45,018 bases of DNA from a virus, in IMG/VR virus record IMGVR_UViG_3300023208_000002; one strand, 5' to 3'. This document shows, in pieces, positions 1-45,018 of this stretch. Position numbers and translations under genes: made by a program. Below the pieces are notes generated by a model that did no database searches, was not told the origin of the DNA, and saw nothing but the letters and a program-made list of their open reading frames with translations. Within the stretch, counting starts at the first letter, position 1, and every line of letters begins with the position of its first letter.

Positions 1-127
1 GGCAAATGCGGTTTTCCCCATTGAAGGTCTGGCAGCAATAATAACTAAATCACTTTTTGATATTTGACCAAGCTGTCTATCCAAGTCCGTAAATCCAGTT
101 TTTACACCTACGTCAACTTTCTCTCCA
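1..127. repeat. Terminal overlap, copy 1 (identical to 44892..45018); marks circular closure of the contig
   Basis: Base-by-base comparison: 1-127 equals 44892-45018 with no mismatch. Confidence 0.95.
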
Positions 128-2651: not shown

Positions 2652-2681
2652 ATCTTACCTAATTAATTCTCAATAGTAAAT
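2652..2681 (-). promoter_or_regulatory. Conserved-box promoter A (box 2666-2681)
   Basis: Exact 16-mer ATTTACTATTGAGAAT on the minus strand, directly after terminator 2698-2716. Contains TACTAT (-10-like); alternative reading TTTACT-17-TAAGAT. Confidence 0.5.
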
Positions 2682-2697
2682 ATTATATTCAAAATAA

Positions 2698-2716
2698 AAC
2701 CCTCACTAGGAGGGTT
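2698..2716 (-). terminator. Intrinsic terminator after ORF 2733..3158
   Basis: Stem aaccctc/gagggtt with 5-nt loop, followed on the minus strand by TTTTATTTT. Confidence 0.7.
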
Positions 2717-2732
2717 GATTTGCTTTAAATTA

Positions 2733-3158
2733 TCAAATTTCCAAAAGTTCTTTTTTGTTTGGGTGCAGATTTATAATAGCCATACCCATTTCAAAACTTG
2801 GGTTTTTGCGAACGCCTTCACGCAACCACTGAATATATGCAGTTGAGATTCCAGTCATATTCCCAAGCTGATGTTGAGAAATGTTGTTGTATTTAAATAC
2901 TTCATCAATAATTTTTGGCCAATCAACACTACGCATCCCTGTAAATAATTTAGGGTAGTTTTCTTTTACATAGTCACTATTCAGACTGTAGAAATATTCT
3001 GGCTCATTATCATCTGAGACTTTTCGCTTTGCTAGCAAACCTGTTTTTTTGCTATTTGGTTCGTGCTTTAACTTTTCTCCCTTATAGAAGAAGCTTCGAG
3101 TAGTTAATTCAAAATCAACCACTTCTGCCGTCCCTTCAAAAACTTTCAATACTTTCAT
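2733..3158 (-). CDS. HTH (XRE-like) DNA-binding protein; first gene of the leftward arm
   Basis: C-terminal ISQHQLGNMTGISTAYIQWLREGVRKNP is a helix-turn-helix pattern; AGGAG RBS. Confidence 0.6.
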   Translation of the reverse strand: MKVLKVFEGTAEVVDFELTTRSFFYKGEKLKHEPNSKKTGLLAKRKVSDDNEPEYFYSLNSDYVKENYPKLFTGMRSVDWPKIIDEVFKYNNISQHQLGNMTGISTAYIQWLREGVRKNPSFEMGMAIINLHPNKKELLEI

Positions 3159-3180: not shown

Positions 3181-3209
3181 ATTGTAGTTTATTAAATTAA
3201 CTATTGCAA
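3181..3209 (-). promoter_or_regulatory. Leftward sigma70-like promoter TTGCAA-17-TACAAT
   Basis: -35 is the palindromic hexamer 3204-3209. -10 is 3181-3186 (attgta on plus). AGGAG and ATG 3158 follow. Confidence 0.5.
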
Positions 3210-3240
3210 ATTATAAATATTAGTTTACTATAGTGATTAT
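3204..3240 (+). promoter_or_regulatory. Rightward sigma70-like promoter TTGCAA-16-TACTAT with a variant conserved box
   Basis: It uses the same hexamer 3204-3209 as its -35. -10 is 3226-3231. TTTACTATAGTGATTAT (3224-3240) matches the box at 13 of 17 positions. Confidence 0.5.
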
Positions 3241-3259: not shown

Positions 3260-4033
3260 ATGAATATCGAAAATATTGCGATTATGTGCAAAGATTTAAA
3301 TCAGAGAAATGAAGCGGAAAAAGTTTTAATAAATCATGGATTAGTAAATGATAATAACCATACAGGGAATAAAAATATTACTGTTGGTGTTGGTCAGGTG
3401 TTTTGGTTTTCAGATCGCCCTAATGGATCGAAAATTAGTTTTGATGAATTCATGGAGAAATATTCAGAAAATGAAATGATCAAAAAAATCCATCAAGCCA
3501 AAAAAGAACTTGGTTTAAACAATAGTGAATTATCTTTAAAGATGGGTAAATCCCGCCCTTATATCGCCAAGATGCTTAACCAGCCGCAAAGCGAAAAGGT
3601 TCAGAATAAGGTTATTGCTGAGCTGGATAAATTGCTAAATCAGCCAGAGGTTGACGATACTTTTGTTTCAAACCTTGCTGATGAAATTGAATCGAAAGAC
3701 AAAGAAATTTCAGATCTTAAAAAGGTTATCGAAAGTAAAGATTTGGCTATCAGTGGATTGATTAAGCAAAACGATGAAGCCAAGAAAATTCATGATAAGG
3801 ATGTGAAAATTATTTCAGAAAAACAAGATCAAATTGATAGATTAAAATCAATTAAAGATCATGATTCATATCAAATCAGTGAGCTATCAAAAGCATTGGA
3901 GTATGGGGAGAATTCTCACGAAGCAAATGTCGATAGCCTTAAATCAAAGATCAAGCGCGAACGAATCATTATTTTAATTGTTATTGCAATTTTAACGGCG
4001 CTATTCTTCTTGAAGGGCTCTATTGGTGGTTGA
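3260..4033 (+). CDS. HTH protein with coiled-coil and C-terminal transmembrane anchor
   Basis: AGGAG lies before ATG 3260. HTH-like LGLNNSELSLKMGKSRPYIAKMLNQ, a long heptad-rich region, and C-terminal IIILIVIAILTALFFL. Confidence 0.6.
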   Translation: MNIENIAIMCKDLNQRNEAEKVLINHGLVNDNNHTGNKNITVGVGQVFWFSDRPNGSKISFDEFMEKYSENEMIKKIHQAKKELGLNNSELSLKMGKSRPYIAKMLNQPQSEKVQNKVIAELDKLLNQPEVDDTFVSNLADEIESKDKEISDLKKVIESKDLAISGLIKQNDEAKKIHDKDVKIISEKQDQIDRLKSIKDHDSYQISELSKALEYGENSHEANVDSLKSKIKRERIIILIVIAILTALFFLKGSIGG

Positions 4034-4334: not shown

Positions 4335-4355
4335 AGCTCCTTCGGGAGCTTTTTT
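4335..4355 (+). terminator. Intrinsic terminator
   Basis: agctcc-ttcg-ggagct followed by TTTTT. Confidence 0.75.
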
Positions 4356-4366
4356 AATATTTGCGC

Positions 4367-4402
4367 TTGACACATCCATTCAATTCATTTACTATTGAGA
4401 AT
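4367..4402 (+). promoter_or_regulatory. Conserved-box promoter B: TTGACA-17-TACTAT (box 4387-4402)
   Basis: Consensus -35 at 4367-4372 and a 17-nt spacer. The -10 lies inside the exact 16-mer box; ATG is 21 nt downstream. Confidence 0.65.
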
Positions 4403-6585: not shown

Positions 6586-6879
6586 ATGAAAATCAAGGAA
6601 TCATTGGTCTTTGTGTTTGTTTTTTGGATGCAGAAAGGTGGGCATAACTTAAACGAGCGTAAAGGCAATATTGTTATGCGTAAAAACGGAAAGGTGGCTG
6701 AAATTTATTTTTCGGATGCTGATTATTATGAAATTAACGACTATTGCAAGGAACGGTACGAATTGTTTTTAACGCAATGGCTTAAATATGGAGTGGAGTT
6801 TATCAAGAATTTAAAACGTGAAGGTGCGTTAGAAGTAATGCGTAATAGAGGGCAACGATATTTGGAGCTGAAGAAATGA
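6586..6879 (+). CDS. Hypothetical protein (97 aa)
   Basis: GGAGG RBS before ATG 6586. Confidence 0.5.
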   Translation: MKIKESLVFVFVFWMQKGGHNLNERKGNIVMRKNGKVAEIYFSDADYYEINDYCKERYELFLTQWLKYGVEFIKNLKREGALEVMRNRGQRYLELKK

Positions 6880-7094
6880 GTAAATATGATTGGTCGAATG
6901 TTCCACCTGAAGTAAATTGGATTGCTACAGATGCAAATGGTAGAAAGTATGGATATGTTAATTACGAACCGTTCCTTGATGGCGTAATACCTTGCCGGGA
7001 TAGCCTTGAAGAAAGTATCCCATTGGGTTACATGGGTTTAGATCTTAATGGTTGCTATTTGTGGCAAGACTCACTAGAGGAGCGTCCAAAATGA
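6876..7094 (+). CDS. Hypothetical protein; paralogue of 30696..30926
   Basis: Shares KYDWSxVPxEVNWIATDxxGxxYG and a C-terminal SLE(E/Q)RPK with the minus-strand ORF at 30.7 kb. Confidence 0.6.
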   Translation: MSKYDWSNVPPEVNWIATDANGRKYGYVNYEPFLDGVIPCRDSLEESIPLGYMGLDLNGCYLWQDSLEERPK

Positions 7095-9442: not shown

Positions 9443-9704
9443 GCTTCTTCACCTTTAAATATTCATGGATAAAAAGAATTGTTAAACAACCAAGACCTAA
9501 GCGGACTAATATTTCAGCATCTTGCATGTGACCATAAAAATCTTTGCCTTGTAGTGTATTGATGAACATTGCAGTAACACCAATAGCAAGGATAAACATG
9601 ATTACGTCAACATGTACGGGAAAGCTAATCTTGGGATGGAATACCACAAACATTAAACTGCCAGTAATCAAGAAAAAGCTTAAGTAATTAAGAAACGTCA
9701 TCAT
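9429..9704 (-). CDS. Membrane protein of the lysis cassette (holin/antiholin candidate)
   Basis: 91 aa with three hydrophobic helices; overlaps both the holin candidate and the endolysin gene. Confidence 0.5.
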   Translation of the reverse strand: MMTFLNYLSFFLITGSLMFVVFHPKISFPVHVDVIMFILAIGVTAMFINTLQGKDFYGHMQDAEILVRLGLGCLTILFIHEYLKVKKHEND

Positions 9705-10023
9705 CGAGCTTCACTCCCGTTTTAGATTCAATTTCTACCTTACTACGCTTTTCGATAGCTTTAATTAGCATTTTTGCTAACGTAATGCCACCCATGCCAT
9801 AAATAAAGCCAAAAACTTCGACACCGCTCCCACTTGCTAAAAGATTGGCAGTAGGTGTTGAAAGTGCTGCACACAGTATAACACCAACAATCCAGCTAAT
9901 AACTCGTTCAGCTAATGGCTTGCCAGAAGGCACTAGAGCGGTGACTGTTGCTCCAGCCACCCCCATAAATATGACGCCTACGTGCGCTTTTAGCCACTCT
10001 AGAATCATGTTAATAAAATCCAC
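9688..10023 (-). CDS. Holin candidate
   Basis: 111 aa with 2-3 TM helices and a charged C-terminus (KRSKVEIESKTGVKLDDD); first gene after terminator 10065-10080. Confidence 0.55.
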   Translation of the reverse strand: MDFINMILEWLKAHVGVIFMGVAGATVTALVPSGKPLAERVISWIVGVILCAALSTPTANLLASGSGVEVFGFIYGMGGITLAKMLIKAIEKRSKVEIESKTGVKLDDDVS

Positions 10024-10064
10024 TATAGATTCACCCTATATAAGTTTTACTTATAATAACAAAA

Positions 10065-10080
10065 AACCCCCGAAGGGGTT
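10065..10080 (-). terminator. Intrinsic terminator after the tailspike gene
   Basis: aacccc-cgaa-ggggtt followed on the minus strand by a T-run (TTTTGTT). Confidence 0.75.
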
Positions 10081-10106
10081 AATTTTGGTTGATTTTTATG
10101 GGTGCT

Positions 10107-12149
10107 TTATGCCAATTTTACCAAGCCTCTACATTGATATGTTGTTGTGTTGTTTGAGTTCTTTATTCCATTCAGAACAACAACTACAACACCTCCAACA
10201 TTTTCTACGGTTACTGTTGGGGTAAATGTTGTGAATCCGCTATATTCAATCGTCCCTGCTGTTCCAAAGAATTTTCCAAAGATACGACTATTTGTGTCAA
10301 CGGTATTCAACAATAAAGCAAAATCCCCTCTCACAAACTCACTATAAGCAATACAAGTTGTAATTCTTACACTAAATGTATTATCAGCTTGTAATGCGCC
10401 TGCCGTATGTGTGCAAAATGGAATTACGTTAGTTTTGTTGGATATTGGGTATTTCCCGAAATAAACATAAGGAACTGTAGTCCCCATATACGACTTAGCT
10501 TGCAGCATGTTTGCGCCAGATGCATTGTCGTATACTGTAACCATCTGCTCAGAAATACCATTTGCAGTTGCAAAACCTGTATTTTTGTTTGTGGTTGTCC
10601 CTGATGGGGTGTTGTCGGCTGGATATGTGGCATTATAAGCCTTAAATGAGTTTTCAGCTTGAGAAAACAATCTAAATGCCGATGTTGCCCCCTCTGACCT
10701 AGAGCCAATAGTGCCTCGCCATCTGTTTTGAAACTCCCTCATGTATCCACTTGCGTTTGTTGCAAGGATTCCAGTGGTACAATTGTTGATAAAGTTGTTT
10801 CTGAATTCTGCACCAATAACAACTGAGCCGCTTACATCAAGAACAACTCCACAATTTTCAAAGTAACAAGCATGAATATCTGGCTCTTCAAGCTCACCCC
10901 TTATTCTTAATGCTGTTTCACACGATTCAGCATCCAAGTGGCTAAAATCTGTAGACTGTGCAGAATAAAATGTGTATGCAAGAGGTGCGCTTGAGCATTG
11001 AATGGTTTCAATGTTGATCATTCCATTCAGTGTCCACAAATCATAAGCTGGCGTTCTCTGATCAACAGGTAATCCAGAACCAAGCCCGCAATGATCGGCA
11101 TAAGATTGCCTGAATGTGCAAAAGTAGTGCTCTCTGCTCCAGAGATGCTGGTCGCAATCTCTACTCCGAACATCTTCTATTGCACACCCTTGTGTCATCC
11201 CACGCAGTCGCATTGATGCTTTACAATACCTAAATCTAAAACCTCGTATTTTAGTGTTTGTGAGGAATTTAGTGTTTTCTGGCTTATCATAAAGAGGAGT
11301 AAGGACTCCATTTACATAATAGCCAGTATAAAAAATATCATTTGCTCTACCGTTTCCAAAAATCTGAGCGCCATTCCCTACAACTTCTGTAAAATCAGGA
11401 ATGATAACTGGTGTAGCAATATAGTGTTTTGCCAGTGAATCAAATTCAATTACACACGGATTTTCTTTGTAATATGCAACAACATTTTGTATCGCTGGCC
11501 CGTCATCTGTACCTTTATTGGTTTGATCAACATAATCAGCTTTAGCTCCACCCATATACGGAGTTAACACTGAGTTGGTTAGCACTCTAACCCATCCATT
11601 AAAAATTACAACACCATCATTTATTGATGATTTTGATGAGTCGTAAACAAACCAACCCCCACCCTTACCAAGCCCACTATGATATGACAAAACATTGGCA
11701 ATATCGCCATCCTTTGGATTTTGAATGCTAAGGAGTGATGAAATTGATTCTGTTGTTGCGATACCCCCTTTCCTAACCCACCCATTCATGTTTGAATTTG
11801 GATTATTAACATTATTGGCAATTGTTGATTGAACAATATCACCATTAGAGAGCATAACGCGGGCATTTAATGGATAACCGCCAATAGTATCGGCGAAGGA
11901 TTGATCAAATTCATAAGGCAGTCCCTTATTTAAGTGAACAATATGCTGACCATACAAATTTAGGATACCATTAAAATCATTTCGCTCAGGAGGAATACCG
12001 CCCTCAGAAATCTTTTGTTGGGTGACTGGCGGGAAGCCAGCATCATTGGAAGCTAGTTGAGGTTTTGTTGGGTCAGTGTTTACGTTGGGGATAATGTTTT
12101 TATCGCCATTTTCAGCGAATGGGGTTGTAACAAGTGTTGGATTGGTCAT
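10107..12149 (-). CDS. Tailspike / receptor-binding protein with probable beta-helix polysaccharide depolymerase domain
   Basis: 680 aa. It has a fibre-type N-terminal anchor (GGIPPERNDFNGIL...GGYPLNARV...NNVNNPNSNMNGW). The central part is rich in short beta-strand repeats with many Cys, Asn and Gly. It is the last structural gene. Confidence 0.7.
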   Translation of the reverse strand: MTNPTLVTTPFAENGDKNIIPNVNTDPTKPQLASNDAGFPPVTQQKISEGGIPPERNDFNGILNLYGQHIVHLNKGLPYEFDQSFADTIGGYPLNARVMLSNGDIVQSTIANNVNNPNSNMNGWVRKGGIATTESISSLLSIQNPKDGDIANVLSYHSGLGKGGGWFVYDSSKSSINDGVVIFNGWVRVLTNSVLTPYMGGAKADYVDQTNKGTDDGPAIQNVVAYYKENPCVIEFDSLAKHYIATPVIIPDFTEVVGNGAQIFGNGRANDIFYTGYYVNGVLTPLYDKPENTKFLTNTKIRGFRFRYCKASMRLRGMTQGCAIEDVRSRDCDQHLWSREHYFCTFRQSYADHCGLGSGLPVDQRTPAYDLWTLNGMINIETIQCSSAPLAYTFYSAQSTDFSHLDAESCETALRIRGELEEPDIHACYFENCGVVLDVSGSVVIGAEFRNNFINNCTTGILATNASGYMREFQNRWRGTIGSRSEGATSAFRLFSQAENSFKAYNATYPADNTPSGTTTNKNTGFATANGISEQMVTVYDNASGANMLQAKSYMGTTVPYVYFGKYPISNKTNVIPFCTHTAGALQADNTFSVRITTCIAYSEFVRGDFALLLNTVDTNSRIFGKFFGTAGTIEYSGFTTFTPTVTVENVGGVVVVVLNGIKNSNNTTTYQCRGLVKLA

Positions 12150-23602: not shown

Positions 23603-24102
23603 GGCGCGAATACTCCCTGTGTAAATGGCTTAGCATCAGATCCAGCAAATCCGAAATAACGAGCATCATGTGGCGATTCTTTGCCAGTATTTTGAACCAG
23701 CACTTTCACCCATCCATCATAGTTGTTTTCACCTTCGATAGCGATTTCATCACAATAAGACTCAAGCACAGCCTTAACTTGCCATTCAGTAGGAAATTCT
23801 TCACCGTATGGATTCATAACAATAATAGACGTACCTTTTTGCATAGCTCGTCTAATCGCTGGAATCATGCCATCAGCATAGATGGATAAGAATTGCCCTT
23901 GTTGGTTAGCAAATCCAAGATGCTTCAAATCCTCCACGCTCATTGACTGAGCTTGCACGACTTTAGGCTGTACAATGTATTGTGGAACTTGTGTTCCATC
24001 TGGCGTGACAGTAAAACCTGTACTTACTTTCAATAATGCTTCTGTGTTGCTATTTACTGCCGTTGTGATGCTATTAGCTATACTTCTTAATCTTAGACCC
24101 AT
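23599..24102 (-). CDS. Neck / head-tail joining protein
   Basis: 167 aa; synteny only. Confidence 0.4.
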   Translation of the reverse strand: MGLRLRSIANSITTAVNSNTEALLKVSTGFTVTPDGTQVPQYIVQPKVVQAQSMSVEDLKHLGFANQQGQFLSIYADGMIPAIRRAMQKGTSIIVMNPYGEEFPTEWQVKAVLESYCDEIAIEGENNYDGWVKVLVQNTGKESPHDARYFGFAGSDAKPFTQGVFAP

Positions 24103-24109
24103 TAAAAAA

Positions 24110-24129
24110 GCCCCATCGTTTGATGAGGC
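24110..24129 (-). terminator. Intrinsic terminator after the clamp-like gene
   Basis: 8-bp stem with one mismatch (gccccatc/gatgaggc), followed on the minus strand by TTTTTT, which abuts ATG 24102. Confidence 0.65.
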
Positions 24130-24139
24130 TATTTTAACA

Positions 24140-24697
24140 TTAAATTCGTCTTGGCATTAACAGCCCATGCGCCTTTTCTGTCAATTCCACATAAGCACAA
24201 TTTATTTCAGTGGTTGGGAATATTTCTGGAGAATGGTTTAATCCAAGAATTTTACCAACTTTCAAAAATAAATTTAAATAATTAAAATCAAAACTTGGAA
24301 AGTTTTTAAATTCAACTTTTTCTGGTTTTTCAATATCAACCTTTTTAATGTCTGGAAATTTTCCATCAATTGGTTTAAATAACTCAAGCGACCCATTATG
24401 ATCAAGCAACCAAAAATCACTATCCTCAGCCAATTGATGCAATTTGACAGTTTTAAACATTGGATTATTTCCAACTTTTTTTATTAAAGAGTCTATTGTT
24501 TCTGCTGGAATAATTAGATCAAAGCCAGATAAGTTTTCATCATCGACAATTAAAGCAATATGTCCATTTGTTGACGCAATAAATCCGTCTCCAATGTAGA
24601 CGCCAGTTAAATAAAATCTAACATCATTTTTTGCTTTGCAAATAGATGCTGCTTTTAAATTTTTGTATTCGATTTCTACAGTTTTTAAAAATTTCAT
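24140..24697 (-). CDS. Truncated DNA polymerase III beta sliding-clamp homologue (185 aa)
   Basis: Three matches to E. coli DnaN: DVRFYLTGVYI...ASTNGHIALIV vs DVRYYLNGMLF...VATDGHRLAV; IDGKFPDIKKV vs VDGRFPDYRRV; C-terminal GLLMPRRI vs YVVMPMRL. Confidence 0.6.
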   Translation of the reverse strand: MKFLKTVEIEYKNLKAASICKAKNDVRFYLTGVYIGDGFIASTNGHIALIVDDENLSGFDLIIPAETIDSLIKKVGNNPMFKTVKLHQLAEDSDFWLLDHNGSLELFKPIDGKFPDIKKVDIEKPEKVEFKNFPSFDFNYLNLFLKVGKILGLNHSPEIFPTTEINCAYVELTEKAHGLLMPRRI

Positions 24698-24729
24698 TTT
24701 AAATTCCCGATAAAGATTATTGAGATTTA

Positions 24730-24758
24730 ATTATATTTATTTACTATTGAGAATGCAA
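24730..24758 (-). promoter_or_regulatory. Conserved-box promoter C: TTGCAT-17-TATAAT with the box (24739-24754) inverted inside the spacer
   Basis: -35 at 24753-24758 and -10 at 24730-24735 (minus-strand reading). The exact 16-mer is present but in the opposite orientation to the other sites. Confidence 0.55.
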
Positions 24759-29168: not shown

Positions 29169-29200
29169 CTATATCAATTTTTCTTATTATGCAATAAAAA

Positions 29201-29220
29201 AGCCACTCGTTAAAGTGGCT
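29201..29220 (-). terminator. Intrinsic terminator embedded in the last codons of ORF 29210..29401
   Basis: agccact-cgttaa-agtggct followed on the minus strand by a T-run. Confidence 0.65.
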
Positions 29221-29401
29221 TTAAATCATATGGCGCATTAGCATTGCCAAATGGATATTCTTTCCATTCATTATCATGCCACCAATGCCAACAGCTATCT
29301 AATTTCCAGTAATCAATAGTATAATCAACTACACAGCTACATTCATAGTGCGTAGCCCCGTCAGGCGCATTTCTCTTAATCTCGTCAATGTTCATCATCA
29401 A
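29210..29401 (-). CDS. Small protein of the 'GATHY' paralogue family
   Basis: IDEIKRNAPDGATHY...DLKPL parallels 37659..37844 (IEEIRKNAPGGATHY...SIKPL). Confidence 0.55.
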   Translation of the reverse strand: MMMNIDEIKRNAPDGATHYECSCVVDYTIDYWKLDSCWHWWHDNEWKEYPFGNANAPYDLKPL

Positions 29402-29492: not shown

Positions 29493-29855
29493 TCACCGTA
29501 TCGCTTTCTTGATTTCACGGATACAGAACTTCAAAGCAAATACTCTCTGATCATTACCGTTCTTTAGATTCTGCTCTTTCGCCAATTCAAGTTGACTAAC
29601 AAGCTGATTAGCTGCATTTCTTAACTTGTCATTTTCAATCTTTGAGTTATGTAATTCTTGAGCTAGGCGATCTACTTCTAAGATTGCTTGCTCTCTTGTA
29701 AGCTCTTGGTCAGCAAAGCAAGTTCCGCCTGCATGGCAATAACCGTCTGCGCCACAGTAAGGGCTTCCACCCTTACAGCGCATCACAGCATTAGCCCATA
29801 TTTCATCGTTCTTGCTTAGCAAGTCGTGCTCACATGGAATCTTGATTGCTTTCAT
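29493..29855 (-). CDS. Cys-rich N-terminal domain plus coiled-coil protein
   Basis: CEHD...CKGGSPYCGADGYCHAGGTCF followed by heptad-rich sequence. Confidence 0.5.
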   Translation of the reverse strand: MKAIKIPCEHDLLSKNDEIWANAVMRCKGGSPYCGADGYCHAGGTCFADQELTREQAILEVDRLAQELHNSKIENDKLRNAANQLVSQLELAKEQNLKNGNDQRVFALKFCIREIKKAIR

Positions 29856-30703
29856 CCTTCCCCCTTGAGCGCTTGCTCTAAATCACCAAGAGTTATGTCT
29901 CTTCCCTGTTTTTGATTGATTTCATACGCTAGCTTTTCTAAGAACTCGCTGTTGTCTTTTGTTTCATAAGCAAGCTCAGCTGCTTTTCTAGATGCATAAA
30001 CACCGGCTATCCAACCTTCCATGCCTAATACATAGAATCTACCTTCAGCTTCTAAAACAGGAGCGCCTCGAACCTCTAAAGCCTCTTTCAATTCACTTGC
30101 ACATTGAAGTGCAAAATGCGCATGTTCTGTAGACTCAGCCCACTTCCAGATCAATTTTTCCGCTGCCTCCTGTTTTCGTCTTAGACTTTCCACTCGCTTT
30201 TGCAGCTCTCCATTCAGCTTTGCAGTTGCCATTTCATCTAAGGCATATTGAGTTGCACGGTTATCTAAATCAGTGACTTGCTTTTGCAGCCCCTCCACTT
30301 TCGCTTGCTGGTGCTGCCATACCTGATCAGCCAAACCTTTTGCACCTTCATAGCGATGAATATCTGCATCATCAATCCAGAAGTCGTAGGCATCTTTAAA
30401 TACTTCTTCAAATGACTGTGGTTTATCCATCTCAAACATCCTTTGATTTACACAGTGGGCTGATGTGGTTTCTATTCTGTCTAGGACTTCCAATTCCCTC
30501 GGATTCGATGGTTTATCAATGCGGTGTCCTGCTGCTATTTCTTCATCTTCGGCAAAACGAAAGTTAACTTTATGAGCGAATGAATAATGCTCTTTATCCC
30601 AATATGCTCGAATGAATTCTTTGTAGCTTTCTTGAATGGTCATTACCTTGTTCTGGCTGCTACTCTTTAAAACAACCTTATCCCCAACTTTAAACTCACT
30701 CAT
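29852..30703 (-). CDS. Hypothetical protein (283 aa), N-terminal small beta-barrel-like motif
   Basis: FKVGDKVVLKSSSQNKVMTIQ (DUF2158-like), a central coiled coil and an unknown C-domain. Confidence 0.5.
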   Translation of the reverse strand: MSEFKVGDKVVLKSSSQNKVMTIQESYKEFIRAYWDKEHYSFAHKVNFRFAEDEEIAAGHRIDKPSNPRELEVLDRIETTSAHCVNQRMFEMDKPQSFEEVFKDAYDFWIDDADIHRYEGAKGLADQVWQHQQAKVEGLQKQVTDLDNRATQYALDEMATAKLNGELQKRVESLRRKQEAAEKLIWKWAESTEHAHFALQCASELKEALEVRGAPVLEAEGRFYVLGMEGWIAGVYASRKAAELAYETKDNSEFLEKLAYEINQKQGRDITLGDLEQALKGEG

Positions 30704-30926
30704 GGCTGGCTCCTTTTGGACGTTGTTCTAATGATTTTTCCCAGTCATCTTTAAATGGGTTACTCTCTTTAGGGATTGAGATTACAAACTCAATAGGACT
30801 CCATATTCCAAGACCAACTCTAATTTTTGGCTGACCAACAAACCCGTAAGCCCAACCGTCTTGATCTGTTGCAATCCAATTAACTTCGGCAGGTACTAAC
30901 GACCAATCGTACTTATGCATTTTCAC
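30696..30926 (-). CDS. Hypothetical protein; paralogue of 6876..7094
   Basis: KYDWSLVPAEVNWIATDQDGWAYG...SLEQRPK. Confidence 0.55.
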   Translation of the reverse strand: MKMHKYDWSLVPAEVNWIATDQDGWAYGFVGQPKIRVGLGIWSPIEFVISIPKESNPFKDDWEKSLEQRPKGASHE

Positions 30927-31326
30927 CGCCTCCGTATATTGATTCGTGGACAGAAACTACCTTCTTCCCAAACACTGCGTCTTGTGCTTCGATTGCTCGC
31001 TTGATCTGGTTTGCTCTTTCTGTCTGGCCTCTCATGCAAGCCTTCATGAACTCACGGTTTGCATTCTTTTTAGTTTTTAGCTCTTTGAATAAATCCAACG
31101 ACTCCACCAGACGCTTGAGGTCTGGAAAGTCGACAAATGGAGGTAGTTCTAGATTCTGTATCGTTAAGTTATCAACTGCCTTCCACTCGCTGCCATTCCA
31201 GAACTCAGTTGAACGTAAATAAACTTCAAAAGGGATGTCGTAGTGAGTTGCACCTTTTGGCGCCCCCTCAACAACCTCTCTCGCCTTCTCCACCCCATAC
31301 TCACGAATAAACTGTTCTGGTTTCAT
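30913..31326 (-). CDS. Hypothetical protein with N-terminal 'GATHY' module
   Basis: VVEGAPKGATHYDIPFEVY... Confidence 0.5.
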   Translation of the reverse strand: MKPEQFIREYGVEKAREVVEGAPKGATHYDIPFEVYLRSTEFWNGSEWKAVDNLTIQNLELPPFVDFPDLKRLVESLDLFKELKTKKNANREFMKACMRGQTERANQIKRAIEAQDAVFGKKVVSVHESIYGGGENA

Positions 31327-32086: not shown

Positions 32087-32134
32087 TTCAAACCCCTTCT
32101 ACTGAATAACTAAATCATACCACTCTTAAATATA

Positions 32135-32150
32135 ATTCTCAATAGTAAAT
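32135..32150 (-). promoter_or_regulatory. Conserved box D (exact 16-mer), immediately after terminator 32174-32193
   Basis: ATTTACTATTGAGAAT on the minus strand. Possible readings are TACTAT as -10, or TTGAGA-17-TATGAT. Confidence 0.5.
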
Positions 32151-32173
32151 ATAAAATAGTTTAGATAAAATAA

Positions 32174-32193
32174 AACCACCCGTTAGGATGGTT
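32174..32193 (-). terminator. Intrinsic terminator closing the ORF-free segment
   Basis: Minus strand reads AACCATCC-TAAC-GGGTGGTT (one mismatch), followed by TTATTTTATC. Confidence 0.65.
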
Positions 32194-32194
32194 C

Positions 32195-32650
32195 TATTGG
32201 CTTAACTAACACACTTTGCATTTTGCCTTATGCGCTAAGACCTTTTGTGTTTAAGGGCTAGTGATTGCACTTTCATTGATTCACTTCGCAAGACGTAATA
32301 TCCCTTTCGGGTTTGTGCTTTCGTCTGAATTTAAACTTAGATGAAGTGAACGCTAGCAACCAACAGGAATCCCCATCAGAATTCACTTCTCTAAGTTGCC
32401 CACTTTCTGGCGGTCACTAAGCTGAATAACCTAGAATACAAGTAAACATCAATCGGGGTTTCATGCCCCAAGCTATATACAATTTACCTATATGTTAAAA
32501 CACAGGTTTCGCCTCATCCAATAAAACCAAGTATTGTGAAGCTCCGCCACAGATTAAAGCTCTTGGAAGCATCTGTTTTGCGCTGTGCTATTGATCGGCA
32601 ACGTGCGAATAGTTGCATTAGTGATACCACACCACACGATGACCATTGTT
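32195..32650 (-). ncRNA. Candidate large structured non-coding RNA of unknown class (strand tentative)
   Basis: No ORF in any frame. About 44% GC against an AT-richer genome. Several strong hairpins, including a 15-bp stem and a GNRA-looped helix on the minus strand, plus a terminator at the minus-strand 3' end. Confidence 0.3.
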
Positions 32651-32780
32651 TTTTTTAATTGCCAATAGTTCGTGATTATGTCGCACATGGATTCAATCAA
32701 TAATCAAATAATACCAAACCAAACTAAAAATACAAATCAGTTGTTTTGATATTGGTTATCAATTTTACTTAATTCAAAAA

Positions 32781-38121: not shown

Positions 38122-38331
38122 TCATCTATTCACCCTCTTCAAAATACCACCCAACCCCGTTCGACTGATCGCAAGCAGCTTAGCCGCCTCAGTCTGATTT
38201 CCTCTCGTCTTAATCAAGGCTCTTTCTAAAATGGCTTTTTCTACATGGCTTCTAATCTTGTAAAAACTTTCACCATTGGCTATAGCTTCGTCAATTTCTT
38301 GCTCTGTGATTATTGGAATTAATTCACTCAT
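38122..38331 (-). CDS. Fis-type (HTH_8) small DNA-binding protein
   Basis: ILERALIKTRGNQTEAAKLLAISRTGLGGILKR vs E. coli Fis [33 protein letters not shown]. Confidence 0.6.
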   Translation of the reverse strand: MSELIPIITEQEIDEAIANGESFYKIRSHVEKAILERALIKTRGNQTEAAKLLAISRTGLGGILKRVNR

Positions 38332-40714: not shown

Positions 40715-40750
40715 ATTCTCAATAGTAAATTATATTTATAATTAATGCAA
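40715..40750 (-). promoter_or_regulatory. Conserved-box promoter E: TTGCAT-17-TACTAT (box 40715-40730)
   Basis: -35 at 40745-40750 and -10 at 40722-40727 (minus-strand reading). It lies directly after terminator 40771-40795. Confidence 0.65.
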
Positions 40751-40770
40751 GAATTTTATGCAAAAAAAAA

Positions 40771-40795
40771 TCCGCATCTTGGGGTTAGATACGGA
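40771..40795 (-). terminator. Intrinsic terminator
   Basis: 9-bp stem (one G-U on the minus strand) followed by T9. Confidence 0.8.
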
Positions 40796-40838
40796 TATAA
40801 AAAGTTTCTTTAGTTCGCTAAATATAGCAAATTTTTAG

Positions 40839-43545: not shown

Positions 43546-43581
43546 ATTCTCAATAGTAAATACTATTGAGAATAATTGCAA
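43546..43581 (-). promoter_or_regulatory. Conserved-box promoter F with 28-bp perfect palindrome (43546-43573); TTGCAA-17-TACTAT
   Basis: ATTCTCAATAGTA-AA-TACTATTGAGAAT. -35 at 43576-43581 and -10 at 43553-43558 (minus-strand reading). Confidence 0.65.
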
Positions 43582-44204: not shown

Positions 44205-45018
44205 TCACATGTCCAAATATTCTAAATTAAGATTGCTAAATCTTGAGTATTGTAGTTCAGTTGCTAATCTAACTGTTCCAACCTCACCATCACGCGCTTT
44301 GGCTACAATAATTTCGGCAATACCCTGATCTTTTGAGTTCTTATCATAATACTCATCACGATATATAAACATGATCACATCTGCGTCCTCTTCAATAGAC
44401 CCTGACTCACGAATGTCAGACATTAGAGGTCGTCTATCTTTTCTAGATTCTAAGCTTCGGCTTAATTGCGCTAAACAAAAAACAGGACAATCAAATTCTT
44501 TTGCTATAGCCTTAAGACCTTTTGATATTGCACCAACTGCCAAGTGATTGTTGTCAGTAGATAATGGTGATTTAAGCAATGTTAAATAGTCAACGAATAC
44601 TGCACCCACATAACCATATTTTGCTTTCATGATTCGGCAATTTTTTCTAATATCCGATAGGCTAGGTCTTGCTCTATCATCAATTAAAAGCTTTGATGCC
44701 TTCAATTTCTCAGTTGCTTTATAGAAGAACTCCCAATCCTTGTCTTTAATATCAGAATCACGAATATCTCTTAAATTTATTGAGGCTAGACTAGCAACCA
44801 ATCTTTGCCCAATTTTTTCTTTCGACATTTCAGCAGACTGGAATAAAACTGGATGTTGTTGCAGAAAAGAAACACTCAACATTAAGCTTTGGGCAAATGC
44901 GGTTTTCCCCATTGAAGGTCTGGCAGCAATAATAACTAAATCACTTTTTGATATTTGACCAAGCTGTCTATCCAAGTCCGTAAATCCAGTTTTTACACCT
45001 ACGTCAACTTTCTCTCCA
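44205..45018 (-). CDS. dnaB: Replicative DNA helicase DnaB, 3' (C-terminal ATPase) part; 5' part is 1..657
   Basis: Walker A AARPSMGKTAF, Walker B-like VGAVFVDYLTL, SQLSRSLESRKDRRPLMSDIRESGSIEEDAD. Confidence 0.85.
   Translation of the reverse strand, partial: GEKVDVGVKTGFTDLDRQLGQISKSDLVIIAARPSMGKTAFAQSLMLSVSFLQQHPVLFQSAEMSKEKIGQRLVASLASINLRDIRDSDIKDKDWEFFYKATEKLKASKLLIDDRARPSLSDIRKNCRIMKAKYGYVGAVFVDYLTLLKSPLSTDNNHLAVGAISKGLKAIAKEFDCPVFCLAQLSRSLESRKDRRPLMSDIRESGSIEEDADVIMFIYRDEYYDKNSKDQGIAEIIVAKARDGEVGTVRLATELQYSRFSNLNLEYLDM
44892..45018. repeat. Terminal overlap, copy 2 (identical to 1..127)
   Basis: Exact 127-nt identity with the window start. Confidence 0.95.

What the first reader, a model, noticed from the sequence alone, without database searches (positions are those of the whole stretch)
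43546..43573. Perfectly conserved 16-nt box ATTTACTATTGAGAAT at six intergenic sites, once as a 28-bp perfect palindrome
The exact 16-mer occurs at 2666-2681, 4387-4402, 24739-24754, 32135-32150, 40715-40730 and 43546-43561. The 13-nt core TACTATTGAGAAT occurs a seventh time at 43561-43573, forming the palindrome ATTCTCAATAGTA-AA-TACTATTGAGAAT. A 13/17 variant sits at 3224-3240. A specific 16-mer is expected about 2e-5 times by chance in 45 kb.

Every copy is intergenic. Four follow directly after an intrinsic terminator. Five sit 19-49 nt upstream of a start codon in the gene orientation.

In three cases a good -35 lies 17 nt upstream of the box's TACTAT (TTGACA at 4367, TTGCAT at 40745-40750, TTGCAA at 43576-43581). 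The box therefore spans the -10 through roughly +8.

At 24739-24754 the box is inverted and lies in the spacer of a TTGCAT-17-TATAAT promoter, like the upstream arm of the palindrome. Conservation beyond the -10, use in both orientations and the palindromic version all point to an operator for a dimeric phage regulator superimposed on a promoter family. The 141-aa XRE-like, 266-aa HTH-membrane and Fis-type proteins are candidate regulators.
Basis: seen in the sequence. Interest (0 to 1): 0.65.

Follow-up and report, generated by a model that had tools for sequence, protein, structure and literature searches.

The report
Shared promoter box in Acinetobacter phages
A 16-base sequence sits inside the main promoters of this Acinetobacter phage, its relatives and unrelated Acinetobacter prophages; it is real and strongly conserved, most likely a promoter core that also serves as a regulator's binding site, but the protein that reads it is unknown.

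Summary
ATTTACTATTGAGAAT occurs six times exactly, plus a seventh 13-nt core, and every copy is intergenic. The window is a complete ~44.9-kb Obolenskvirus (AP22/AB1-like) Acinetobacter myophage.

Across 11 related genomes the box stays almost invariant at orthologous sites (5 of 96 columns vary), while adjacent intergenic DNA varies about five times more.

The box lies in sigma70-type promoters in three registers:
- TACTAT serves as the -10, with a conserved -35 exactly 17 nt upstream (three sites).
- TTGAGA serves as the -35 of an extended -10 promoter (head of the late block).
- The box is inverted in the spacer of TTGCAT-17-TATAAT, a mobile moron-type cassette.

Two degenerate copies lie between the divergent HTH genes.

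The "palindrome" is not conserved in relatives. Inverted pairs elsewhere have variable spacing, so it is weak evidence for a dimeric operator.

New finding: the same box occurs in temperate Acinetobacter prophages, always just downstream of a Q-type antiterminator gene (22 of 80 unselected loci), and it sits at mosaic junctions.

Best reading: a portable promoter core that doubles as an operator. The binder is unidentified; the membrane-anchored protein at 3260-4033, whose HTH is invariant, is the leading candidate.

This is a new member of a known kind.

The parts
2666..2681 (-). Box copy heading the leftward unit (p88 zinc-ribbon gene 2652-2386 and replication genes). It has no -35 at 16-18 nt.
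   Evidence: Position 1 (A/G) and position 13 (G/T) vary among relatives.
2698..2716 (-). Intrinsic terminator ending the 141-aa gene, directly upstream of the 2666 box.
   Evidence: -9.4 kcal/mol.
3196..3211 (+). Degenerate box 1, ATTAACTATTGCAAAT (13 of 16). It contains the self-complementary TTGCAA (3204-3209), which serves as the -35 for both divergent promoters.
   Evidence: (TTGCAA-17-TACAAT on the minus strand), and sequence reading.
3224..3239 (+). Degenerate box 2, GTTTACTATAGTGATT (12 of 16). Its TACTAT is the -10 of the promoter of the 257/266-aa HTH gene (TTGCAA-16-TACTAT).
   Evidence: It is conserved as GTTTACTATAG(T/G)GA(T/A)T in relatives.
4335..4350 (+). Intrinsic terminator upstream of the 4387 box.
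   Evidence: -11.1 kcal/mol.
4367..4402 (+). Complete promoter TTGACA-17-TACTAT with the box at 4387-4402 (-15 to +1). It heads the lipoprotein/RecT/exonuclease unit.
   Evidence: 10 of 12 consensus positions; the -35 and the box are invariant in 11 genomes while the spacer varies.
24730..24758 (-). Class B promoter TTGCAT-17-TATAAT with the box (24739-24754, + strand) inverted in its spacer. It drives the 185-aa cargo gene 24697-24140, which has its own terminator at 24130-24109.
   Evidence: The cassette is conserved in AP22, AB1, BUCT628 (two copies) and C62 in front of different cargo genes.
32114..32150 (-). Box at 32135-32150 heading the 23-kb head-tail block. Its TTGAGA (32142-32137) is the -35 of TTGAGA-17-TGgTATGAT. 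Its TACTAT has no -35.
   Evidence: 10 of 12 plus TG; the box and the downstream GTGGTA(T/A)GATTTAGTTATTCAG are invariant in 12 genomes.
32169..32198 (-). Intrinsic terminator directly upstream of the 32135 box.
   Evidence: -15.8 kcal/mol, z -4.9.
40715..40750 (-). Promoter TTGCAT-17-TACTAT with the box at 40715-40730. It heads the unit that runs through the Fis-type gene to terminase and portal.
   Evidence: 10 of 10 genomes exact.
40770..40796 (-). Intrinsic terminator upstream of the 40715 box.
   Evidence: -12.8 kcal/mol, z -5.9.
43546..43581 (-). Promoter TTGCAA-17-TACTAT with the box at 43546-43561. It heads the 53-aa gene and the superinfection-immunity genes.
43561..43573 (+). Inverted 13-nt arm lying in the spacer of the 43546 promoter. 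It is not conserved in relatives.
3260..4033 (+). Candidate reader p257. It has a variable N-terminal domain, an invariant XRE-type HTH (residues 72-119), an invariant coiled coil and a C-terminal membrane anchor.
38122..38331 (-). Candidate reader p69, a Fis/NtrC-type HTH_8 protein.
   Evidence: (E 2.2e-9).
2733..3158 (-). p141, with an XRE/immunity-repressor-type HTH at its C-terminus. It more likely reads the divergent control region than the box.

Best explanation
The box is the shared core of a portable promoter cassette: terminator, optional -35, box, Shine-Dalgarno site, first gene. One such cassette heads nearly every transcription unit of this phage.

Host sigma70 RNA polymerase uses parts of the box as promoter hexamers. 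TACTAT is the -10 in most sites, and TTGAGA is the -35 at the head of the late block.

All 16 positions are fixed, and the box also sits, inverted, in a promoter spacer that polymerase does not read. The box is therefore most likely also the landing site of a sequence-specific protein. Bound over -15 to +1, over the spacer, or over the -35, that protein would occlude polymerase and so switch all units together, as a repressor-type operator does.

Shown: the copies, their conservation, their promoter context and their spread to other phages. Inferred: that a protein other than polymerase binds, that it represses, and which protein it is.

The leading candidate is the membrane-anchored HTH protein encoded at 3260-4033, whose own promoter carries a weakened box. 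The Fis-type protein, or a host or prophage factor, remain possible.
For: Copies and chance:
- Six exact copies plus one 13-nt core; 0 of 100 shuffles reach the count.

Conservation across 11 genomes:
- 5 of 96 box columns vary, against 33 of 120 (-20 to -1) and 27 of 120 (+1 to +20).
- The -35 hexamers are kept at exactly 17 nt while the spacers vary.

Context:
- Four copies follow terminators.
- The box occupies three registers and two orientations in promoters.
- The class B cassette is conserved in front of four different cargo genes.
- Degenerate boxes lie in the divergent HTH-gene control region.

Variants and spread:
- The variants ATTTGCTATAGCGAAC and ATTTACTATAGCGAAC at the same prophage position include one that cannot be a -10.
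- At least 19 unrelated contexts in Acinetobacter phage DNA share only the 16-mer, with sharp edges.

Candidate reader:
- The p257 HTH is invariant in 9 genomes, with 4-11 synonymous against 0-2 non-synonymous codon differences.
- phiAC-1 lacks the box and also lacks p257, p141 and p69.
Against: - No binding or transcription data exist for this box.
- The palindrome is not conserved, and inverted pairs have variable spacing (4-nt overlap, 1-nt gap, 10-nt gap). That fits independent back-to-back promoters better than a dimeric operator.
- In 4 of 7 class B contexts the box's own strand also has a usable -35 (TTGAGA-16 or TTGCAT-18), so even that copy could be a promoter.
- Prophages that carry the box have no close p257 relative. 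They appear to hold only one or two copies, near Q, so a phage-encoded global repressor is not a general explanation.
- The internal dyad is weak (5 of 8 pairs).
Confidence: 0.45

Rival explanations
1. The box is only a promoter. It is the -10, discriminator and start region of a strong sigma70 promoter that spreads between Acinetobacter phages as a small terminator/promoter cassette by recombination. Its uniformity reflects recent copying and selection for one optimal polymerase-binding sequence, not a separate binding protein. Inverted copies are back-to-back divergent promoters, possibly making antisense RNA.
For: - The -35 lies at exactly 17 nt in three sites, and boxes follow terminators and precede SD-ATG.
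- A G two bases after the -10 is the favourable sigma region 1.2 contact (established knowledge).
- Boxes sit at mosaic junctions. 22 of 203 homology endpoints fall within 60 nt of a box, against 3.7 expected. In prophages, homology breaks 10 nt before the box or just after Q.
- Inverted pairs have variable spacing.
- The distant relative phiAC-1 has its own uniform promoter family, so uniform promoters are a habit of this group.
Against: - Sigma70 does not require 16 fixed positions.
- Identity stops abruptly at the box edges in unrelated contexts, whereas recombinational spread should leave ragged shared flanks.
- The class B copy is conserved in a spacer.
- The TGCTAT variant keeps the rest of the box.
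- Several copies lack any -35.
Confidence: 0.3
2. The box is the docking site of a factor that modifies RNA polymerase at the promoter. This could be a functional analogue of lambdoid Q at PR'/qut, or a sigma-appropriating factor. Transcripts started at boxes would then read through the many intrinsic terminators inside the units.
For: - In prophages the box lies 560-1233 nt after the start of a PF06530 Q gene in 22 of 80 unselected loci, and nowhere else in those loci.
- L023 shows the order RusA, Q, terminator, box, small genes, terminase, portal.
- The late block of the window has sense-strand terminators with no room for a new promoter, at 29222-29199 and 24130-24109.
- A -10-like hexamer often starts at box position 16, which corresponds to +1 to +6, the place of the lambda pause element (Q cassette described in 10.1101/651190).
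Against: - The window has no Q homologue (phmmer best E 0.077; profile of 9 Q proteins best E 0.02).
- The box is identical next to Q proteins that are only 27-37% identical and have different HTH helices.
- 11 of 25 loci with the identical Q lack the box.
- Internal terminators may simply set expression ratios.
Confidence: 0.12
3. The box is a DNA-level site without a transcription role, such as a recombination boundary, a homing-endonuclease target, or a replication or packaging site.
For: - Boxes coincide with mosaic junctions.
- HNH genes lie next to some boxes, for example the LZ35 28553 context.
Against: - The position relative to -35, SD and start codons is consistent, and orientation follows the genes in 5 of 7 copies.
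- Breakpoints favour intergenic DNA in any case.
- A site repeated 6-7 times in the phage's own genome is an unlikely nuclease or packaging target.
Confidence: 0.03

Closest known systems
Lambda-type operators overlapping promoters (OR/OL)
   Same: A short site embedded in the core promoter. Weaker copies lie between two divergently transcribed HTH regulator genes.
   Different: Lambda operators are clear dyads confined to the immunity region. This box is largely asymmetric (5 of 8 internal pairs) and is dispersed over all transcription units. No repressor has been identified, and the phage group is regarded as virulent.
Dispersed asymmetric operators of phage P1 C1 repressor (recalled from memory, not tested)
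   Same: An asymmetric site of about 17 bp is scattered over the genome at many promoters, and some sites occur as inverted pairs.
   Different: No C1-like protein was found here. There are 6-7 copies rather than more than 15. This is a resemblance only.
Mycobacteriophage cluster A operators/stoperators (PMC9283540)
   Same: An asymmetric, near-invariant short site in intergenic DNA across the genome, mostly oriented with transcription.
   Different: Stoperators number more than 20 and lie mostly in short gene gaps without promoters, where they stop elongation. Here every copy is in a promoter. No two-domain HTH-plus-Stoperator repressor is evident.
PeSL composite terminator/promoter cassettes of T4-like phages (PMC4122927, PMC2839356)
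   Same: A small conserved stem-loop-plus-promoter unit, repeated between genes, that marks the points where unrelated genes are swapped.
   Different: This is a different phage group and a different sequence. Here the conserved part is only 16 nt, and the terminators differ from copy to copy. The unit is shared between virulent myoviruses and temperate prophages.
Lambdoid late promoter PR' with qut site (10.1101/651190)
   Same: In prophages the box lies just downstream of a Q-family gene and upstream of late genes. The layout is a -10, six bases, then a -10-like hexamer.
   Different: The box does not co-vary with Q, is absent from many loci with the same Q, and is used 6-7 times in a phage with no Q homologue.
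Morons (promoter-gene-terminator units in phage genomes; established concept)
   Same: The 185-aa gene at 24140-24697 has its own box promoter and its own terminator, and it occupies a different place in BUCT628.
   Different: The box also heads essential replication and structural units, not only accessory genes.

Membership tests
Sigma70-type promoter | A -10 hexamer of the form TAnnnT | tested here: met
   TACTAT is present in every exact copy. One prophage variant, TGCTAT, fails this test.
Sigma70-type promoter | A -35 hexamer 16-18 nt upstream | tested here: inconclusive
   Met at 4387, 40715 and 43546 (4-6 of 6 matches, spacing 17, conserved in relatives). Not met at 2666, 32135 or the LZ35 extra copy. 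The consensus scan as a whole finds no more sites than shuffled sequence does.
Sigma70-type promoter | A transcript 5' end about 7 nt downstream of the -10 | not testable with these tools
   No transcriptome of an Obolenskvirus was found.
Operator of a dimeric HTH repressor | Dyad symmetry with fixed half-site spacing | tested here: inconclusive
   The internal dyad is ATTnnCnA|TnGnnAAT, 5 of 8 pairs. CTATTG-N6-CAATAG occurs in class B and some prophage sites. Inverted whole-box pairs have variable spacing, and the window's palindrome is not conserved.
Operator of a dimeric HTH repressor | Overlap with core promoter elements | tested here: met
   The box covers -15 to +1, or -33 to -18, or -42 to -27, depending on the site.
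Operator of a dimeric HTH repressor | Bound by a cognate protein | not testable with these tools
   Only indirect evidence: the p257 HTH is invariant and p69 is conserved.
Stoperators (cluster A mycobacteriophages) | Many (>20) asymmetric sites in short intergenic gaps outside promoters | tested here: not met
   There are 6-7 copies, all within promoter-like contexts.
PeSL-type mobile regulatory cassette | Composite terminator plus promoter, repeated between genes | tested here: met
   Four of five class A copies follow a terminator. The same arrangement occurs in prophages.
PeSL-type mobile regulatory cassette | Copies coincide with insertion, deletion or replacement junctions | tested here: met
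   22 of 203 homology endpoints lie within 60 nt of a box, against 3.7 expected, p 4e-11. Prophage breakpoints agree. Caveat: breakpoints favour intergenic DNA generally.
Q-dependent late promoter (PR'/qut) | A Q gene immediately upstream | tested here: not met
   Met in prophages (22 of 80 loci). Not met in the window, which has no Q homologue.
Q-dependent late promoter (PR'/qut) | A Q-binding element specific to its Q | tested here: not met
   The box is identical next to Q proteins of 27-37% identity with different HTH helices. It is absent from 11 of 25 loci with the identical Q.

The most novel reading that the evidence does not exclude
The box is the docking site of the tail-anchored membrane protein p257, which has an invariant XRE-type HTH, a long coiled coil and a C-terminal transmembrane helix. 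On this reading every transcription unit of the phage genome is held at, or silenced from, the inner membrane through its promoter. Because temperate Acinetobacter phages carry the same box at their Q-proximal promoter, virulent Obolenskviruses and resident prophages could control each other's promoters. That would be a form of cross-immunity or hijacking mediated by a shared portable operator.
Probability: 0.08. Interest if true: 0.75.

Novelty: new member of a known kind. Interest (0 to 1): 0.45.

Why it matters
Obolenskviruses are among the phages most often proposed for therapy of multidrug-resistant Acinetobacter baumannii, and nothing is known about how they time their genes.

- One 16-nt box marks essentially all of their transcription units. 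That gives a direct handle for mapping the transcription programme, for finding the master regulator, and for building compact Acinetobacter promoters or switches.
- The same box sits next to the antiterminator gene of common A. baumannii prophages. Resident prophages or a host factor might therefore influence therapeutic phages, which is testable.
- The box also marks the points where gene cargo is exchanged between virulent and temperate Acinetobacter phages.

Tried and rejected
Searches that led nowhere:
- A scan of genome contigs for the 16-mer was saturated by single chance hits in unrelated taxa. It says nothing about host chromosomes.
- Rfam (gathering threshold) and tRNA scans of the window gave no hits.
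- Literature searches for the sequence and for Obolenskvirus promoters or transcriptomes found no description. The promoter table of the fThrA paper is not held.
- A database search with the p257 HTH segment returned a single partial hit.
- An 8-mer-based scan found p257 only in Obolenskvirus contigs.
- The single-sequence AlphaFold model of p257 was confident only for the long helix 133-255, so no fold search was run.
- A co-variation test with the variant box ATTTACTATAGCGAAT in metagenomic locus L133 failed because no regulator gene lies in that short contig.

Readings rejected:
- TTGAGA as the general -35. At 4387 and 40715 the downstream -10 would overlap the start codon.
- GAGAAT as the -10. 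The spacing to the conserved -35 is wrong.
- An RNA-level element. Inverted copies exclude it.
- IHF, Fis, Fur and sigma54/32/28 sites. These were checked by eye against consensus sequences recalled from memory and fit poorly.
- Phage RNA polymerase promoters. No polymerase gene is present.
- PHROG or Pfam annotation of about 40 early proteins gave no sigma factor or antiterminator.

Full report
**What the window is.** Megablast places the window among Acinetobacter myophages of the Obolenskvirus group (BUCT628, LZ35, AB1, AP22, YMC-13-01-C62 and others), at about 89-92% identity over 45-80% of its length. Bases 1-127 repeat 44892-45018 exactly, so the window is a circularly closed genome of 44,891 bp. 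G+C is 37.7%. No RNA polymerase gene, tRNA or Rfam family is present.

**The observation.** The 16-mer ATTTACTATTGAGAAT occurs exactly at six places, and its 13-nt core at a seventh. No shuffle approaches this count, and it is the most repeated 12-mer in the genome.
- All copies are intergenic.
- Five copies point with the downstream gene and end 18-48 nt before its start codon.
- Four follow a convincing intrinsic terminator, and the 43546 copy does not.
- At 24739 the box does lie inverted in the spacer of TTGCAT-17-TATAAT.
- The '28-bp perfect palindrome' is two perfect 13-nt arms around AA.

**Conservation in relatives.** I compared 11 genomes.
- The 4387-, 40715- and 32135-type copies are exact in every genome that has the site.
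- The 2666- and 43546-type copies vary only at position 1 (A/G), position 10 (T/C) or position 13 (G/T).
- In ungapped orthologous alignments, 5 of 96 box columns vary. By comparison, 33 of 120 columns vary in the 20 nt upstream and 27 of 120 in the 20 nt downstream.
- In the 4387-type site TTGACA and the box are invariant while the spacer between them has many substitutions. This is the signature of a working -35/-10 pair.
- The upstream arm of the window's palindrome is not maintained: it reads ATTCTCgATAGT, ATTCTCtATAGT, cATTataGATAGT or ATTgcggATAGT in other genomes.
- The distant relative phiAC-1 has no box. It has its own uniform promoter family, TTGCAA-TAATTTTATA-n7-TATAAT.

**Three promoter registers.**
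- Register 1: at 4387, 40715 and 43546 the box spans -15 to +1, with TACTAT as the -10.
- Register 2: at 32135, the head of the 23-kb head-tail block, TACTAT has no -35. Instead, the box's TTGAGA is the -35 of TTGAGA-17-TGgTATGAT, an extended -10 promoter. Its downstream part is as invariant as the box in 12 genomes.
- Register 3: at 24739 the box is inverted in the spacer of a near-consensus promoter. That whole 29-nt cassette recurs in AP22, AB1, C62 and twice in BUCT628, in front of different cargo genes. The window's 185-aa cargo gene has its own terminator and sits elsewhere in BUCT628, which is a moron-like unit.
- Control region: between the divergent 141-aa and 257/266-aa HTH genes lie two degenerate boxes. 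One contains a self-complementary TTGCAA that serves as the -35 for both directions. The other supplies the -10 of the rightward promoter.

**Beyond this phage group.** The exact box also occurs in many IMG/VR contigs from isolate genomes with Acinetobacter-like G+C that are not Obolenskviruses.
- There it follows terminators or gene ends and precedes small genes.
- It lies downstream of a Q-family antiterminator gene: PF06530, E 2.6e-10, above the Pfam cut-off, and phrog_79, E 1.9e-23.
- In L023 the gene order is RusA, Q, terminator, inverted box pair, small genes, terminase, portal.
- To remove ascertainment bias I fetched 80 loci by Q homology alone. Of these, 22 carry a box with at most two mismatches. 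It is always on the Q strand, 560-1233 nt after the Q start, and nowhere else in the 6.4-kb loci.
- Further variants occupy the same place: ATTAACTATTGAGAAT, ATTTACTATAGCGAAC and ATTTGCTATAGCGAAC. The last lacks the A that a -10 needs.
- The box does not track Q. It is identical beside Q proteins that are only 27-37% identical and have different HTH helices. It is absent from 11 of 25 loci with the identical Q, where homology ends 75-85 nt after Q or, in one case, 10 nt before the box.
- The window has no Q homologue.

**Mosaic junctions.**
- Between the window and four relatives, 22 of 203 blastn segment ends fall within 60 nt of a box, against 3.7 expected. Breakpoints favour intergenic DNA in any case, so this is a caveat.
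- The first gene after a box often differs between genomes, while the box and the leader are kept.
- Window genes just downstream of the 32135 box (29493-31326) have homologues in the prophage loci, one at 94% identity.

**Candidate readers.**
- p257 (3260-4033) hits HTH_3 only weakly (E 0.0019, below the cut-off) and belongs to a PHROG annotated as a transcriptional regulator.
- In nine genomes the p257 N-terminal domain is of several unrelated types and its linkers diverge. The HTH segment, a coiled-coil segment and the C-terminal membrane helix are invariant, with 4-11 synonymous against 0-2 non-synonymous codon differences in the HTH. A single-sequence model is confident only for the long helix.
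- p69 is a clear Fis/NtrC-type HTH protein and is also well conserved.
- p141 carries an immunity-repressor-type HTH. Its recognition helix differs in LZ35-type phages that keep the exact box.
- All three proteins are absent from phiAC-1, so presence or absence does not discriminate among them.
- Close p257 relatives were not found in the prophage contigs.

**Interpretation.** The promoter role is well supported. The case for an additional reader rests on four points: all 16 positions are invariant with sharp edges in at least 19 unrelated contexts; the box is used in several registers and orientations, including a spacer; the TGCTAT variant keeps the rest of the box; and degenerate copies lie in the regulators' own control region. 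Against a classical dimeric operator are the weak internal dyad, the decay of the palindrome, and the variable spacing of inverted pairs. Those features fit back-to-back promoters equally well. I therefore rate the readings as follows:
- promoter core that doubles as an operator: 0.45
- promoter only, spread as a PeSL-like cassette: 0.30
- polymerase-modifier docking site: 0.12

**Comparison with known systems.** The box works like an operator-bearing promoter family.
- It resembles the dispersed asymmetric operators of P1 (from memory) and of cluster A mycobacteriophages (PMC9283540). It fails the stoperator criterion of many promoter-independent sites.
- It resembles the T4-type PeSL terminator/promoter cassettes in composition and in marking exchange points (PMC4122927).
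- In prophages it occupies the position of lambdoid PR' (10.1101/651190), but it fails the Q-specificity tests.
- No paper in the searchable library contains the sequence.

**Verdict.** This is a new member of a known kind, of moderate interest.

Noticed in passing
window 1-127 and 44892-45018: The two ends of the window are identical over 127 bp. The record is therefore a circular or circularly permuted assembly with a true unit length of 44,891 bp.
   Followed up: yes
window 3181-3231: The divergent promoters of the 141-aa and 257-aa HTH genes appear to share one self-complementary -35 hexamer, TTGCAA (3204-3209). Leftward it reads TTGCAA-17-TACAAT and rightward TTGCAA-16-TACTAT. This would make their use mutually exclusive.
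   Followed up: partly
L124 (phiAC-1) 6579, 8448, 15010, 30040: The distant relative phiAC-1 lacks the box. It has its own uniform promoter family, gTTGCAAtTAATTTTATA-n7-TATAAT, with a conserved 10-nt spacer element. Two copies lie right after terminators.
   Followed up: partly
window 24109-24758: The 185-aa gene matches PHROGs annotated as RusA-like resolvase and, weakly, as DNA polymerase processivity factor. It is a self-contained promoter-gene-terminator unit in the middle of the tail genes. The same gene with the same promoter sits at a different place in BUCT628 (9611-10225), and other relatives carry different cargo at the window's site.
   Followed up: partly
window 32190-32780: A stretch of about 600 nt has no convincing ORF. 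It lies between the + strand 313-aa gene and the 32135 box and contains a terminator-like hairpin at 32471-32453(-). A gap in the same position exists in LZ35, AB1, AP22 and BUCT628, but sequence conservation is patchy. There is no Rfam hit.
   Followed up: partly
window 29199-29222 and 24109-24130 (- strand): Strong sense-strand intrinsic terminators lie immediately before the prohead protease start (29168) and before the gene starting at 24102. There is no room for a new promoter. The late genes therefore need read-through or antitermination, or these terminators set expression ratios.
   Followed up: no
window 3260-4033 and orthologues in L120-L123, L264-L272: The HTH protein is modular. 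Unrelated N-terminal domains (at least three types) and variable linkers are joined to invariant HTH, coiled-coil and membrane-anchor segments.
   Followed up: yes
window 29493-31326; L045, L086, L069: Four genes of unknown function just downstream of the late-block box have homologues next to the Q gene of Acinetobacter prophages. The 120-aa protein is 94% identical in L045. This points to recent exchange between virulent and temperate phages.
   Followed up: partly
window 6876-7094 and 30696-30926: Two paralogous small proteins (72 and 76 aa, sharing the motif KYDWS..P.EVNWIATD) are encoded in different modules. Homologues occur in prophage loci.
   Followed up: no
L019 (IMG/VR 3300032562_001647), ~260 and ~3149 (- strand): An unrelated low-G+C (0.32) viral contig carries the box-like ATTTGCTATTTAGAAT twice. 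Each copy lies two bases after a TATAAT, which is an operator-like position over the start site.
   Followed up: no
L064 5184-5372; L069 8120-8314: A conserved 62-64-aa ORF lies between the Q gene and the box in many prophages. Its C-terminus (…KNAESVERLK) ends 8-16 nt before the box.
   Followed up: no
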